Made by a program: the position numbers and the translations under genes. From the NCBI GenBank assembly GCA_004321885.1, contig SCQK01000026.1, forward strand, positions 1 to 1,417: DNA of 1,417 bases, given 5' to 3'. Shown one piece after another: positions 1 through 1,417 of this stretch (positions are counted from its first letter, which is position 1; each line of letters opens with the position of its first letter). The DNA comes from Patescibacteria group bacterium. GTDB lineage: Bacteria; Patescibacteriota; Patescibacteriia; Magasanikbacterales; GWA2-37-8. The notes under the pieces are model-generated. The model was not told the DNA's origin and did no database searches. It saw nothing but the letters and a program-made list of their open reading frames with translations.

Positions 1-1417
1 TCATGACAGCGCGTCGAGGATGTGCGCGAGCGAACCGGTCGCGACGCCGACGACTCTGTCGGCCGCGCCGTAATAGAGAAATAGCGCGTCGCCCCGCGCC
101 ACCGCACCGCAGGAGAAGACAACGTTCGCAACCTCGCCCTCCTTTTCGTATTTCTCTATCGGCTCGAAGATAGGGTCGGCGGTGCGCGCGAGCACCGACG
201 TGCCGGAGGCGTCGAGAAGCGCCGCGCCGAGGCGGTAGGTACCGTGGCGCGAGACGCCGTGATAGATCATGAGCCACTTGTCGCCGACCCGTATCGGCGG
301 CGCCGCGCTCCCGACCTTCGCTCCGTCCCACATGCCGCGCCGCGGCGCCATAATCTCGATACAACGGCTCACGCGCTTTCCCGCGGAGAGGTCGGGCAGG
401 AGGTCGGCGCATATCATATTGTTGATGCGGTGGTAGAGGAGGTAATTTCCGTCGACCTTCTCGGGCAGGAGCGCGAGGTCCTTATCGTCGACGCCGTCAG
501 GCGTCAGGAGAAACGGCGCGCTCCACGCGTCGAACCGCCGCGCGAGGAAGTCGTCAACGCTTATGGACGAGACCGCTCCCTGCGGGACGCGCACGCCGTC
601 GTATGCCGTATAGGTCATGTGGAGGATATTGTCGATGCGTACGATGCGCGGGTCCTCACAGCCGGAGTTGCCGAGCGGACTCCCATGTTTCATTTCAAAA
701 TCGGCACGCGGCGCGTAGACCGGAGCGGACAGGCGCTCGTCGATGGTGATGCCGTCTTTGGAAACGGCGAGTCCGATGGTGGACGTGTTCGCGCCGTCCA
801 TCGCTCGATAGAGGAGATGCACCGAGCCGTCGAGGTCGATGGCGGCGGGGTTGAACACGGCGCGGCTCTCGAAGCCGTCGCCTCGCGGCGCGAGGATCGG
901 ATTCTCTGCCGCGCGGTTGAAGGTGCGCGCGGGCCGCTCGGGGTCGAGGGCGCGCATAAGGTCGCGGAGCTTCACGCTCGCCTTGGCGCAGACGGTGTCC
1001 GCCGCGCCATACCAGATATTGAGCCGACCATCTTCGCCGAGAGTCGCGCTCGTCGGGAAGACGATGTTCGGCACGAGGCCGTACTCTTCATAAAATTCTT
1101 GCGGCACCAGGATTGCTTCTGTGCGCGCTATCAGCTTTTGCGGATTTTTTGTGTCAAAAAGCGCCGCCTCGACGGAGAAAACGCGTTTGTGCTCGTCGTA
1201 ATAATTCTGGATATAGGAGTAGATGACCAGCCACCCCTGCTCGGTCAAAAGCGGCGCCGCGCCGACTTCGACATGGTCGCCGTCGTCGCGGCGCATCTCC
1301 GCTATCGCGTGGTCAGCGAGATGTTCGTGCCACTCTTTCCAATATGCTTCGTCAAAGAAATCCTCGATTTTTTTGGCGCGGGCGAGTGCGATGGTCGGCC
1401 GCGGATGTTCCGCGGTC
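1..1417 (-). CDS. Glycoside hydrolase family 130 (DUF377) protein, likely a beta-mannoside phosphorylase or glycosidase. It has a tandem two-module architecture. It is 5'-partial: the stop codon is at nt 1-3 and the N-terminus lies beyond nt 1417.
   Basis: The minus-strand frame is open from nt 1417 down to the TGA at nt 3-1, at least 471 codons. I hand-translated nt 1297-1416 and found no stop: ...TAEHPRPTIALARAKKIEDFFDEAYWKEWHEHLADHAIAE, followed by MRRDDGDH.... The GH130 hallmark motifs are in the expected order: NPILAP / FESRAVFNPAAI near the module start, LLYRAMDG, the catalytic-region motif GCEDPRIV (Asp215 at nt 652-654), MTYTAYDG, DDKDLALLPEKVDGNYLLYHR, AAPPIRVGDKWLMIYHGV, and a C-terminal NVVFSCGAVARGDALFLYYGAADRVVGVATG. 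Codon usage is GC-rich at third positions throughout, consistent with a real gene in a high-GC genome. Confidence 0.88.
   Translation of the reverse strand, partial: TAEHPRPTIALARAKKIEDFFDEAYWKEWHEHLADHAIAEMRRDDGDHVEVGAAPLLTEQGWLVIYSYIQNYYDEHKRVFSVEAALFDTKNPQKLIARTEAILVPQEFYEEYGLVPNIVFPTSATLGEDGRLNIWYGAADTVCAKASVKLRDLMRALDPERPARTFNRAAENPILAPRGDGFESRAVFNPAAIDLDGSVHLLYRAMDGANTSTIGLAVSKDGITIDERLSAPVYAPRADFEMKHGSPLGNSGCEDPRIVRIDNILHMTYTAYDGVRVPQGAVSSISVDDFLARRFDAWSAPFLLTPDGVDDKDLALLPEKVDGNYLLYHRINNMICADLLPDLSAGKRVSRCIEIMAPRRGMWDGAKVGSAAPPIRVGDKWLMIYHGVSRHGTYRLGAALLDASGTSVLARTADPIFEPIEKYEKEGEVANVVFSCGAVARGDALFLYYGAADRVVGVATGSLAHILDALS
4..906 (-). other. Complete GH130 catalytic beta-propeller module (module 2, residues ~131-431 of the listed ORF)
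   Basis: The module begins at ENPILAPRGDGFESRAVFNPAAIDLDGSVHLLYRAMDG and ends at the protein C-terminus. It carries the GCEDPRIV motif and basic residues K272 (nt 481-483), H289 and R290 (nt 427-432) and R164 (nt 805-807). These residues sit in motif contexts where characterised GH130 phosphorylases place phosphate- and substrate-binding residues. Confidence 0.8.
943..1417 (-). other. C-terminal portion of an upstream, second GH130-like module (module 1). Its N-terminal half lies outside the window.
   Basis: This segment aligns motif by motif with the C-terminal third of module 2. HAIAEMRRDDGDHVEVGAAPLLTEQGWLVIYSY matches RCIEIMAPRRGMWDGAKVGSAAPPIRVGDKWLMIYHG. KRVFSVEAALFDTKNPQKLIARTEAILVPQEFYEEYGLVPNIVFPTSA matches YRLGAALLDASGTSVLARTADPIFEPIEKYEKEGEVANVVFSCGA. 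GEDGRLNIWYGAADTVCAKASVKLRDLMRAL matches RGDALFLYYGAADRVVGVATGSLAHILDAL. A linker, PERPARTFNRAA (nt ~907-942), follows. Confidence 0.7.

What the first reader, a model, noticed from the sequence alone, without database searches (positions are those of the whole stretch)
1..1417. Two GH130 (DUF377) modules fused in tandem in one polypeptide
Characterised GH130 enzymes (e.g. Bacteroides 4-O-beta-D-mannosyl-D-glucose phosphorylase, UhgbMP, Thermotoga Tm1225, the Thermoanaerobacter beta-1,2-mannoside phosphorylases) are single-module proteins of roughly 300-400 aa. Where two occur together they are normally adjacent separate genes. Here one continuous frame encodes the last ~150 aa of a GH130-like module, a 12-aa Pro/Arg-rich linker (PERPARTFNRAA), and then a complete second module. 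The internal protein-level repeat is clear by eye: the AAP(P/L)..GWL.IY block, the NVVF.(C/T) block and the (Y/W)YGAAD block each appear twice. A fused double phosphorylase or glycosidase could act on two linkages of a mannoside or N-glycan substrate, or could pair an active module with a degenerate one.
Basis: partly seen in the sequence, partly recalled or inferred. Interest (0 to 1): 0.55.

Follow-up and report, generated by a model that had tools for sequence, protein, structure and literature searches.

The report
Fused double GH130 mannoside enzyme, Patescibacteria
The window holds the last 471 codons of a roughly 638-residue protein of ultra-small (Patescibacteria) bacteria in which two different GH130 sugar-cleaving modules are permanently fused. 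One looks like a normal beta-1,2-mannoside phosphorylase; the other has consistently lost its phosphate-binding site. The layout is real, widespread and untested, but it belongs to a well-known enzyme family.

Summary
The minus strand (nt 4-1416, stop at 3-1) is one open frame. It encodes the last ~157 aa of one GH130 module, a ~7-aa linker, then a complete second GH130 module.

The contig ends inside the gene. Hundreds of homologues at 49-87% identity are 632-664 aa and carry two full GH130 modules. All named sources are Patescibacteria (Kaiser-, Adler-, Nomura-, Taylorbacteria, Paceibacterota).

The modules differ:
- **Module 2 (M2)** keeps every residue used to predict a beta-1,2-mannoside phosphorylase, in 77 of 77 species.
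- **Module 1 (M1)** keeps the sugar-binding residues and the catalytic Asp. Its three phosphate ligands are replaced (Arg to Thr/Ser, Lys to His/Gln, His to Ser). An invariant Glu sits where phosphorylases have an invariant Gly.

The gene lies in a conserved cluster: a membrane-anchored single GH130, then the tandem gene, then a HAD-type hexose-phosphate mutase.

Most likely M2 makes alpha-mannose-1-phosphate for the mutase. M1 is probably a non-phosphorolytic partner, either a hydrolase or a binding/pseudo-dimer module.

GH130-GH130 proteins are listed in CAZy but none has been characterised. I rate this a new variant of a known kind, of moderate interest.

The parts
1..1416 (-). 3' part (471 codons plus TGA stop at nt 3-1) of a gene for a tandem GH130 protein of ~638 aa. 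The 5' end runs off the contig.
   Evidence: open frame. (P0001 is an identical partial NCBI protein on a 1417-bp contig; full-length homologues are 632-664 aa).
946..1416 (-). C-terminal ~157 aa of GH130 module 1 (M1), corresponding to residues 168-324 of the full-length homologue P0013. It contains His48 (nt 1273-1275), Glu50 (nt 1267-1269) and Ser67 (nt 1216-1218). These are the M1-specific replacements at the phosphate site. It also contains Asp140 (nt 997-999), the conserved sugar-binding Asp of the YGAAD motif.
   Evidence: PF04041, profile 195-318, 78 bits. (residue conservation). (coordinates).
925..945 (-). Short inter-module linker DPERPAR (aa 158-164).
   Evidence: TF.R...NPIL after it is homologous to the N-terminus of M1; coil between helix 317-323 and the first strand of M2 in the model of P0013.
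4..924 (-). Complete GH130 module 2 (M2, aa 165-471) with the full phosphorylase residue set: Arg204 (nt 805-807), Glu254-Asp255 (nt 652-657), Lys312 (nt 481-483), His329-Arg330 (nt 427-432), Lys367 (nt 316-318), His386 (nt 259-261), Asp453 (nt 58-60).
   Evidence: PF04041, 180 bits. (NF052550, 287 bits, below the 450 cut-off). (best solved relatives 9FJ8 and 7FIP)..
1..4 (-). ATGA on the minus strand. The TGA stop of the tandem gene overlaps an ATG. In homologous loci this ATG starts the next gene, a HAD-type hexose-phosphate mutase.
   Evidence: window nt 1-4 read ATGA on the minus strand, and the same ATGA ends the tandem gene in 35 of 85 loci; 4-nt overlap with the mutase gene in L001 and L003.

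Best explanation
The window encodes the C-terminal three quarters of a cytoplasmic, ~638-aa hetero-tandem GH130 protein of a Patescibacteria (Paceibacteria or Kaiserbacteria-like) bacterium.

**Shown:**
- Two five-bladed-propeller GH130 modules are joined by a ~7-aa linker in one conserved polypeptide.
- M2 carries the complete residue set of beta-1,2-mannoside phosphorylases.
- M1 keeps the -1/+1 sugar-binding residues and the catalytic Asp. It has lost all three phosphate ligands and gained an invariant Glu in the phosphate pocket.
- The gene is flanked by a third, membrane-anchored GH130 gene upstream.
- A full-length homologue of HAD-type alpha-hexose-1-phosphate mutases lies downstream, often with an overlapping ATGA.

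**Inferred:**
- M2 phosphorolyses beta-1,2-mannosides from the non-reducing end to alpha-mannose-1-phosphate.
- The mutase converts that product to mannose-6-phosphate, so no ATP is spent on sugar activation.
- M1 binds the same kind of glycan but cannot use phosphate. It most probably acts as an inverting hydrolase, with Glu217 (P0013 numbering; Glu50 of the window protein) as general base, on a linkage or chain end that M2 cannot take.
- M1 also replaces the second subunit of the homodimer that single-module GH130_6 enzymes form.

**My sub-confidences:** tandem GH130 architecture 0.97; M2 is a beta-1,2-mannoside phosphorylase 0.7; M1 is catalytically active as a hydrolase 0.35.
For: **Architecture**
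- establish the open frame and the two Pfam matches.
- The 120 best proteins are 75-100% identical to the query; apart from six shorter entries (471-605 aa, including the query's own partial record) they are 632-664 aa long.
- All 80 best GTDB species loci cover query residues 1-626 or more (two begin at residue 6 because the contig ends there), at 49-81% identity. All named sources are Patescibacteria.
- The AlphaFold2 model of P0013 has pLDDT 87.8 and pTM 0.88.
- Its best Foldseek matches are Teth514_1788 and Teth514_1789, with target-normalised TM-score (TMt) 0.84-0.89.

**Active-site residues**
- Reference positions come from PMC7660257 and PMC12814180.
- M2 has R371, E421, D422, K479, R497, H553 and D620 invariant in 77 of 77, and K534 as Lys in 75 and Arg in 2. 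The E/K pair predicts beta-1,2 linkage.
- M1 has R43, E91, D92, K144 and D307 in 77 of 77.
- In M1, R497 corresponds to T162 (T59/S13/A4/L1), K534 to H215 (H71/Q4/F2) and H553 to S234 (S75/A2).
- M1 has E217 in 77 of 77 where M2 has Gly536 in 77 of 77.
- The register was checked against the strand positions of the model and the ungapped BLAST alignment.
- The same M1 signature holds in 20 of the 22 M1-classified domains from the 50%-identity cluster representatives.

**Operon**
- The upstream GH130 gene is present in 76 of 80 loci. The 4 exceptions are at contig ends.
- The HAD gene lies directly downstream in about 74 of 80 loci.
- The HAD protein aligns over its full length with L. lactis alpha-phosphoglucomutase 4BND (E 2e-38) and with eukaryotic-type phosphomannomutases.

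**Variable fusions that suggest physical cooperation** (S = the upstream membrane-anchored module type; X = a weak-scoring N-terminal domain; both are described in the full report)
- S-M1-M2 in one 971-aa protein, with 3 Pfam stretches.
- S-M2, M2-M1, and free M1 next to an X-S protein.

**Precedent and quaternary structure**
- Loss of the basic phosphate ligands and gain of Glu marks the GH130 beta-1,2-mannosidases (PMC4599007).
- Teth514_1788 is a native dimer (PMC12814180).
Against: - No biochemistry exists for any member.
- Neither module reaches NCBIfam equivalog cut-offs: NF052550 scores 348 against 450, and NF058598 scores 137 against 550.
- M1 is closer in sequence to GH130_6 phosphorylases (7FIP, E 4e-31) than to the known hydrolases (5A7V, E 9e-9).
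- M1 has no signal peptide, whereas known GH130 hydrolases are secreted.
- The equivalence of E217 with BT3780 Glu268 rests only on alignment end-points. I had no model coordinates, so distances in the active site were not measured.
- The loop 167-170 next to the invariant H164-T165-D166 is low-confidence in the model.
- No transporter or obvious glycan source lies next to the cluster.
- The mutase could be specific for glucose phosphates rather than mannose phosphates.
Confidence: 0.6

Rival explanations
1. M1 is a catalytically dead pseudo-enzyme. It serves only as an intramolecular 'second subunit' (pseudo-dimer partner) and/or a carbohydrate-binding module that positions beta-1,2-mannan chains for M2.
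For: All three phosphate ligands are gone. Single-module GH130_6 enzymes are native dimers, and loops of the neighbouring subunit shape the active site in GH130_4 (PMC12814180). The 7-aa linker and pTM 0.88 indicate a fixed two-propeller body. GH130 proteins carry no CBMs (PMC7660257), so a binding module would have to be recruited from the family itself.
Against: The catalytic Asp92 and the neighbouring Glu91, Lys144, Arg43, Asp307, Glu217 and Asp166 are invariant or nearly so across 49-81% identity and in more distant clusters. That is more conservation than binding alone would require, although several of these residues do bind sugar hydroxyls. Free-standing M1-type genes exist (L086).
Confidence: 0.25
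2. M1 (and/or the upstream membrane-anchored GH130) is a GDP-mannose-dependent beta-1,2-mannosyltransferase. Together with the M2 phosphorylase and the mutase it runs a synthesis/degradation cycle of an internal beta-1,2-mannan reserve, analogous to Leishmania mannogen (GT108 MTP enzymes).
For: GH130 beta-1,2 phosphorylases have weak GT activity. GT108 strict transferases differ from GT/phosphorylases by loss of the Arg at the base of loop L2 (PMC12814180). MTP-2 and MTP-4 appear among the fold matches. The upstream module type S lacks exactly that Arg but keeps the other basic residue and the His. No importer lies next to the cluster, which fits an internal polymer. The cluster is conserved in reduced genomes.
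Against: In Uhgb_MS, R202A abolishes GT activity and R242A lowers it 10-fold. M1 has Thr and His/Gln at these positions, plus a Glu in the phosphate pocket that should repel a nucleotide-sugar phosphate. No beta-1,2-mannan is known from Patescibacteria. No GDP-mannose pyrophosphorylase gene was seen in the flanks.
Confidence: 0.12
3. The apparent fusion in this window is an assembly or gene-calling artefact, and the organism really has two adjacent GH130 genes.
For: The contig is only 1417 bp, comes from a metagenome, and the N-terminus is missing.
Against: The frame is continuous across the junction inside the window. The junction sequence ALDPERPARTF recurs in independent assemblies from NCBI, JGI, ENA and Logan. 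79 of 80 species loci carry one ORF.
Confidence: 0.02

Closest known systems
Teth514_1788 (1,2-beta-oligomannan phosphorylase, PDB 9FJ8/9GPH) and Teth514_1789 (beta-1,2-mannobiose phosphorylase, PDB 7FIP) of Thermoanaerobacter sp. X-514, subfamily GH130_6
   Same: They are the best sequence and fold matches for both modules. They share the E/K linkage pair, and M2 shares the Arg/Lys/His phosphate site. Both are cytoplasmic. Two GH130 units work side by side in one locus and feed alpha-Man1P into metabolism (PMC4264767).
   Different: The Thermoanaerobacter enzymes are two separate ~300-aa genes, both true phosphorylases, forming homodimers. Their locus has an ABC importer, a GH5 enzyme, a Man1P guanylyltransferase and a GT4 enzyme. 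Here the two units are fused, one lacks the phosphate site, and the partners are a third GH130 and a HAD-type mutase.
GH130_3 beta-1,2-mannosidases (BT3780, PDB 5A7V; BACOVA_03624, PDB 3QC2; Dfer_3176)
   Same: M1 shares the defining logic. The catalytic Asp, Glu and Lys are kept, the basic phosphate ligands are lost, and a Glu is placed in the phosphate pocket (PMC4599007).
   Different: M1 has no signal peptide. It is much closer to GH130_6 phosphorylases than to these hydrolases. It scores far below the NF058598 cut-off. It has only one clearly placed Glu (E217) plus Asp166, rather than the Glu227/Glu268 pair. This looks like an independent, convergent loss.
GH130-GH130 bimodular entries in CAZy (PMC7660257)
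   Same: The domain architecture is the same. The authors noted it as rare: 6 multimodular sequences among 1592 in CAZy, four of them GH130-GH130.
   Different: In those four, both modules fell into the same sequence-similarity meta-node, and none was characterised. Here the two modules are only 28% identical and have different active-site signatures. I could not read Table S2, so I cannot say whether any of the four is a member of this family.
GT108 mannogen enzymes of Leishmania (MTP1-7; PDB 6Q4Y, 6Q50)
   Same: They share the five-bladed propeller fold and act on beta-1,2-mannose. The family mixes paralogues with and without a full phosphate site that together make and break one polymer.
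   Different: They are eukaryotic and single-module, with only 13-16% identity to the model. Their strict transferases keep most phosphate contacts, which M1 does not.

Membership tests
GH130 / Pfam PF04041 (both modules) | Match to the family HMM above the gathering score | tested here: met
   Window M1 fragment 78 bits and M2 180 bits against a cut-off of 26. Full M1 of P0013 scores 117 bits over profile 19-318 of 320.
GH130 / Pfam PF04041 (both modules) | Five-bladed beta-propeller fold | tested here: met
   AF2 model of P0013 has pLDDT 87.8. Foldseek TMt is 0.84-0.89 to 7FIP/7FIR and 9FJ8/9GPH. Foldseek aligns one module at a time. The second module is supported by the matching strand pattern and the full-length HMM match, not by a separate fold search.
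GH130 / Pfam PF04041 (both modules) | Catalytic proton-donor Asp (UhgbMP D104) and the -1 subsite Asp (D304) | tested here: met
   M2 has D422 and D620 (window Asp255 and Asp453). M1 has D92 and D307 (D92 lies outside the window; D307 is window Asp140). All are 77 of 77.
GH130 beta-1,2-mannoside phosphorylases (GH130_4/_6; EC 2.4.1.339/340), applied to M2 | Glu/Lys pair at the UhgbMP Y103/R150 positions (beta-1,2 linkage predictor) | tested here: met
   E421 and K479 are 77 of 77. The rule comes from PMC7660257.
GH130 beta-1,2-mannoside phosphorylases (GH130_4/_6; EC 2.4.1.339/340), applied to M2 | Phosphate ligands Arg (UhgbMP R168 / Uhgb_MS R202), Lys/Arg (K212 / R242) and His (H231) | tested here: met
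   R497 and H553 are 77 of 77. K534 is Lys in 75 and Arg in 2. The mapping to Uhgb_MS was read from the alignment.
GH130 beta-1,2-mannoside phosphorylases (GH130_4/_6; EC 2.4.1.339/340), applied to M2 | NCBIfam equivalog NF052550 (beta-1,2-mannobiose phosphorylase) score at or above 450 | tested here: not met
   287 bits for the window protein and 348.5 bits for full P0013 summed over both modules. It is a relative, not an equivalog.
GH130 beta-1,2-mannoside phosphorylases (GH130_4/_6; EC 2.4.1.339/340), applied to M2 | Phosphate-dependent cleavage of beta-1,2-mannosides giving alpha-Man1P | not testable with these tools
   This needs an enzyme assay.
GH130 phosphorylases, applied to M1 | Phosphate ligands Arg / Lys(Arg) / His | tested here: not met
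   T162 (T59/S13/A4/L1), H215 (H71/Q4/F2) and S234 (S75/A2). Glu217 is 77 of 77 in place of the invariant Gly.
GH130_3 beta-1,2-mannosidases (BT3780 type), applied to M1 | Absence of basic phosphate ligands, with carboxylates in their place (Glu227/Glu268) | tested here: inconclusive
   The basic ligands are absent, and E217 and D166 are invariant or nearly so. Equivalence of E217 to Glu268 is inferred only from alignment end-points. No residue-level alignment or coordinates were available.
GH130_3 beta-1,2-mannosidases (BT3780 type), applied to M1 | Signal peptide / secretion | tested here: not met
   Full-length homologues start MFVIRRDPHNPIL, with no hydrophobic leader. This was read from the sequence; no predictor was run.
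GH130_3 beta-1,2-mannosidases (BT3780 type), applied to M1 | NCBIfam equivalog NF058598 score at or above 550 | tested here: not met
   137.5 bits for P0013, and the best stretch lies in M2.
HAD-IIB hexose-phosphate mutases (eukaryotic-type PMM / L. lactis alpha-PGM), applied to the downstream gene in homologous loci | Full-length homology and the N-terminal DxDxT motif | tested here: met
   4BND matches at E 2e-38 over aa 4-256, and PMMs at E 4e-16 or weaker. The FFDLDGTL motif is present. PF03332 scores 45.8 bits against a cut-off of 22.4. Only its ATG is in the window.

The most novel reading that the evidence does not exclude
Paceibacteria-type Patescibacteria run a dedicated three-paralogue GH130 machine with graded phosphate sites. 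The membrane-anchored S module lacks the Arg, M1 has no phosphate site and has gained a Glu, and M2 has a full phosphorylase site. This machine builds, trims and phosphorolyses an internal or cell-associated beta-1,2-mannan, and a HAD-type mutase links it to glycolysis. It would be a bacterial counterpart of the Leishmania mannogen cycle, serving as carbon and energy reserve in organisms with minimal metabolism. The variable fusions (S-M1-M2, S-M2, M2-M1) would then mark a physical complex.
Probability: 0.12. Interest if true: 0.75.

Novelty: new variant of a known kind. Interest (0 to 1): 0.42.

Why it matters
GH130 is a well-studied family used for oligosaccharide synthesis, and it is almost always monomodular.

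This is a large, conserved clade in which a canonical phosphorylase module is permanently fused to a paralogue that has lost its phosphate site. It gives a natural test case for two questions: how phosphorylase, hydrolase and transferase chemistry switch within one fold, and whether the fusion replaces the usual homodimer.

For Patescibacteria, which have very small genomes and few known carbohydrate pathways, the cluster is conserved in hundreds of species. It holds three GH130 modules plus a mutase. That points to beta-mannoside use or storage as a core trait that nobody has tested.

If the protein is only a fused pair of ordinary enzymes, the result is a routine annotation improvement: 'hypothetical protein, partial' becomes a tandem GH130 with a predicted beta-1,2-mannoside phosphorylase module.

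Tried and rejected
1. **Upstream sequence of this gene.** This is impossible, because the window is the whole contig. I used homologues instead.
2. **Supplementary Table S2 of PMC7660257.** I wanted it to identify the four CAZy GH130-GH130 proteins, but it is not held.
3. **Foldseek against afdb50.** I wanted to see how UniProt names the tandem proteins, but the library was not available.
4. **Residue-level alignment of M1 to BT3780 (5A7V).**
   - Only the five best alignments are printed, and 5A7V never ranked that high.
   - That held even with a 51-aa query around Glu217.
   - Only alignment end-points could be used.
5. **My first eyeball mapping of M1 Glu217 onto the phosphate-binding Lys534 of M2 was wrong by two residues.**
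   - The ungapped BLAST alignment, the UhgbMP alignment and the strand register of the model all agree.
   - They put His215 opposite Lys534, and Glu217 opposite the invariant Gly536.
6. **Three alignments placed the M1 counterpart of the phosphate Arg at T162, A163 or after a gap.** No placement gives a conserved basic residue. T162 is supported by the strand register.
7. **L008 as a natural split.** Rejected: the break (450 + 185 aa) is not at the module border.
8. **Plus-strand ORFs of 84, 56 and 55 aa.** They have no Pfam match and lie antisense in 60-68% GC DNA, so I treat them as spurious.
9. **Rfam.** Nothing was found in the window.
10. **Cluster-member names for other architectures.** They gave almost no taxonomy.
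11. **Literature search for GH130 in Patescibacteria.** Nothing specific was found.
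Full report
**1. What is in the window**

- The only long open frame is on the minus strand. Nt 1416 down to 4 give 471 sense codons, followed by TGA at nt 3-1.
- It runs off the 5' end. The window is the entire 1417-bp contig, deposited as 'hypothetical protein EPN28_05035, partial [Patescibacteria group bacterium]' (P0001).
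- Pfam PF04041 (Glyco_hydro_130) matches twice:
  - aa 28-157 against profile positions 195-318 of 320 (78 bits);
  - aa 183-470 against profile positions 32-318 (180 bits).
- Plus-strand ORFs have no family match. No Rfam family is present.

**2. Is the whole protein a tandem?**

- The 120 best database proteins are 75-100% identical over the full 471 aa. Apart from six shorter entries (471-605 aa, including the query's own partial record), they are 632-664 aa long, and 72 of them are exactly 638 aa.
- They start MFVIRR(D/E)PHNPIL and give two GH130 stretches each.
- Scanned alone, the N-terminal 330 aa of P0013 match the Pfam profile from 19 to 318 at 117 bits. Module 1 is therefore a complete GH130 module.
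- M1 and M2 of P0013 align end to end at 28% identity, E 1e-26.
- The stretch after the linker (TF.R...NPIL) is the counterpart of the N-terminus of M1. The linker is therefore only about seven residues (DPERPAR), not twelve.
- An AlphaFold2 model of P0013 has pLDDT 87.8 and pTM 0.88.
- Its best solved-structure matches are the single-module enzymes Teth514_1789 (7FIP/7FIR) and Teth514_1788 (9FJ8/9GPH). The target-normalised TM-score (TMt) is 0.84-0.89 and the query-normalised score (TMq) only 0.42, so each covers half of the model.
- No GH130 chain in the Foldseek PDB results spans both modules; every GH130 match covers about half of the model.

**3. Distribution**

- All 80 best cover query residues 1-626 or more (two begin at residue 6 because the contig ends there), at 49-81% identity.
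- Every named source is Patescibacteria: Kaiserbacteria, Adlerbacteria, Nomurabacteria, Taylorbacteria, Paceibacterota, Minisyncoccia and Parcubacteria. Some TPA bins are labelled 'Saccharibacteria'.
- 79 of 80 loci carry one ORF. L008 is broken at aa 450, not at the module border.
- A search of 50%-identity cluster representatives gave 428 clusters at E 1e-30 or better.

**4. The two modules are not equivalent**

Published predictors (UhgbMP numbering) are:
- proton donor D104;
- phosphate ligands R168 and H231;
- +1 subsite R59, Y103 (Glu in beta-1,2/1,3 enzymes), R150 (Lys in beta-1,2 enzymes) and D304 (PMC7660257).

Uhgb_MS R202 and R242 are phosphate ligands whose mutation hits activity (PMC12814180). 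From the printed alignments, Uhgb_MS K184, R202 and R242 correspond to M2 K479, R497 and K534.

Residues at these positions in 77 tandem proteins from different species:

| Role | M2 | M1 |
|---|---|---|
| +1 subsite Arg | R371, 77/77 | R43, 77/77 |
| Linkage Glu | E421, 77/77 | E91, 77/77 |
| Proton-donor Asp | D422, 77/77 | D92, 77/77 |
| Linkage Lys | K479, 77/77 | K144, 77/77 |
| Phosphate Arg | R497, 77/77 | T162 (T59/S13/A4/L1) |
| Phosphate Lys/Arg | K534 (K75/R2) | H215 (H71/Q4/F2) |
| Phosphate His | H553, 77/77 | S234 (S75/A2) |
| Pocket Gly | G536, 77/77 | E217, 77/77 |
| -1 subsite Asp | D620, 77/77 | D307, 77/77 |

- M1 also has a nearly invariant H164-T165-D166.
- The register is supported by the ungapped BLAST alignment and by matching strands in the model: 156-163 with 491-498, 215-218 with 534-537, and 228-237 with 547-555.
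- Glu217 lies two residues after His215 on one strand, so it faces the same side as the lost Lys. This is inference; I had no coordinates.
- M1 is almost as conserved as M2 (0.69 against 0.74 mean column identity).
- The M1 signature R-E-D-K / T,S,A,N / D / E / S,A,C / D recurs in 20 of the 22 M1-classified domains from the 50%-identity cluster representatives, including free-standing ones (one of the 20 has Asp at the Glu position).
- In the window, the M1-specific residues are His48, Glu50 and Ser67. The M2 set is Arg204, Glu254, Asp255, Lys312, Arg330, Lys367, His386 and Asp453.

**5. Gene context**

The homologous loci carry the cluster below.

- **Upstream GH130 gene (type S).**
  - It encodes ~385 aa and is present in 76 of 80 loci. 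The four exceptions are at contig ends.
  - 73 of 76 have an N-terminal hydrophobic helix followed by Lys/Arg-rich sequence.
  - Type S keeps Glu, Asp, Lys and His. It has Ser/Asn/Gly/Ala at the Arg497 position, and an Arg shifted one residue from the Lys534 position.
- **Inserted gene.** A 306-aa protein of no known family lies between S and the tandem gene in 5 of the 80 loci.
- **The tandem gene.**
- **Downstream HAD-IIB gene.**
  - It encodes ~250 aa and lies directly downstream in about 74 of 80 loci.
  - It aligns over its full length with Lactococcus lactis alpha-phosphoglucomutase 4BND (E 2e-38) and with eukaryotic-type phosphomannomutases. PF03332 is above its cut-off.
  - The tandem gene ends in ATGA in 35 of 85 loci, and in L001 and L003 that ATG is the called start of the mutase gene. 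The window begins with the same ATGA on the minus strand.

**6. Other fusion states**

Among cluster representatives and their contigs I found:
- S-M1-M2 in one 971-aa protein (three Pfam GH130 stretches);
- S-M2 (697 aa);
- M2-M1 in reversed order (645 aa), next to a 579-aa protein with a weak-scoring, GH130/GH32/GH43-like N-terminal domain (here called X; see item 5 of the things noticed in passing) plus an S-type module;
- a 612-aa X-S protein followed by a free 329-aa M1.

Fusions in varying order among the same three module types are the classic sign of proteins that work together. This is inference.

**7. Mechanism**

- *M2.* With the Glu/Lys pair, the full phosphate site and no signal peptide, it is predicted to be an exo-acting, inverting beta-1,2-mannoside phosphorylase producing alpha-Man1P. 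The adjacent mutase would convert that to Man6P. This is the energy-saving route described for other GH130 systems (PMC4264767).
- *M1.* It cannot bind phosphate in the known way.
  - In Bacteroides GH130_3 enzymes, loss of the basic residues and gain of Glu227/Glu268 gives beta-1,2-mannosidases (PMC4599007).
  - In BT3780, Glu227 occupies the phosphate position.
  - HMMER end-points are consistent with M1 Glu217 being the counterpart of BT3780 Glu268. M1 210-311 aligns to chain 265-371, and Asp307 falls at chain 367, which I take to be natural residue D363. This is only suggestive.
  - I therefore favour a hydrolase role (0.35), followed by a pseudo-enzyme or pseudo-dimer role (0.25).
  - A GDP-Man transferase role is less likely for M1, because the equivalent Arg mutations abolish or reduce GT activity in Uhgb_MS. 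It remains open for the S-type protein.
- *Quaternary structure.* Teth514_1788 is a native dimer. The short, conserved linker and the high pTM suggest the fusion fixes a hetero-'dimer'. This is inference.

**8. Comparison and novelty**

- Both modules are GH130 members by HMM score, fold and catalytic Asp.
- M2 works like, and probably is, a GH130_6-type phosphorylase, but it does not reach the NCBIfam equivalog score.
- M1 fails the phosphorylase test. It is not a member of GH130_3: it has no signal peptide, is distant in sequence and scores low. It resembles GH130_3 only in logic.
- Li et al. noted GH130-GH130 proteins in CAZy, four sequences with both modules in the same similarity cluster.
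- No other paper in the searchable library mentions the architecture, and none links GH130 to Patescibacteria in any detail.
- My rating is a new variant of a known kind.

**9. Verdict**

The added value of this analysis is fivefold:
- (a) the fusion is ancient and fixed in a large Patescibacteria clade;
- (b) the modules are functionally different paralogues;
- (c) there is a conserved three-GH130-plus-mutase cluster;
- (e) the window ends exactly at the overlapping start of the mutase gene.

Interest is moderate at 0.42. The find is solid and testable, but it lies inside a well-understood enzyme family.

Noticed in passing
window 1-4 (minus strand): The contig ends exactly at an ATGA, where the stop of the tandem gene overlaps an ATG. 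In homologous loci (L001, L003) this ATG starts a HAD-type hexose-phosphate mutase gene. The same ATGA ends the tandem gene in 35 of 85 loci, which suggests translational coupling.
   Followed up: partly
L001:6820-7974 and the equivalent gene in 76 of 80 loci (L006-L085): A third GH130 gene (~385 aa) always lies just upstream.
- It has an N-terminal hydrophobic helix followed by a Lys/Arg-rich stretch (73 of 76), so it is probably membrane-anchored with the catalytic domain in the cytoplasm.
- It lacks the phosphate-binding Arg (Ser/Asn/Gly/Ala instead) but keeps the His and a basic Arg one position away from the Lys534 site.
- Its function is unknown.
   Followed up: partly
L003:7073-7993; also L010, L023, L030, L054, L065: A ~306-370-aa protein is inserted between the upstream GH130 and the tandem gene in a minority of loci. 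The L003 copy has no Pfam or NCBIfam match and no solved relative.
   Followed up: partly
P0122 (971 aa), P0124 (697 aa), P0127 / L087:2243-4180 (645 aa), L086:2808-5648: The same three module types occur in other fusion states:
- S-M1-M2 as a triple fusion;
- S-M2;
- M2-M1 in reversed order;
- free M1 next to a two-domain X-S protein.

The taxonomy of these contigs was not established.
   Followed up: partly
P0153, P0160 and about 80 further 50%-identity cluster representatives of 590-650 aa: A large class of ~610-aa proteins has an S-type GH130 module at the C-terminus. The ~270-aa N-terminal domain gives only weak GH130, GH32N or GH43 hits, so it may be a strongly diverged propeller. This could be a second, more degenerate kind of tandem.
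   Followed up: no
P0231 and relatives (1115-1217 aa; Bacillota / Dethiobacteria MAGs): Very long proteins carry a GH130 module only at the extreme C-terminus (about aa 870-1190). The N-terminal 850 aa were not examined.
   Followed up: no
L008:4977-6893: This is the only one of 80 species loci where the tandem gene is broken (450 + 185 aa, 6-nt gap). The break is inside module 2, so it is probably a frameshift or sequencing error rather than a natural split.
   Followed up: no
window 1051-1350: GC content drops to 0.55, against 0.63-0.68 over nt 1-1050. The drop lies over the part of M1 that includes a helical segment (P0013 residues ~184-203). That segment is absent from the Teth514 enzymes in the alignment.
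   Followed up: no
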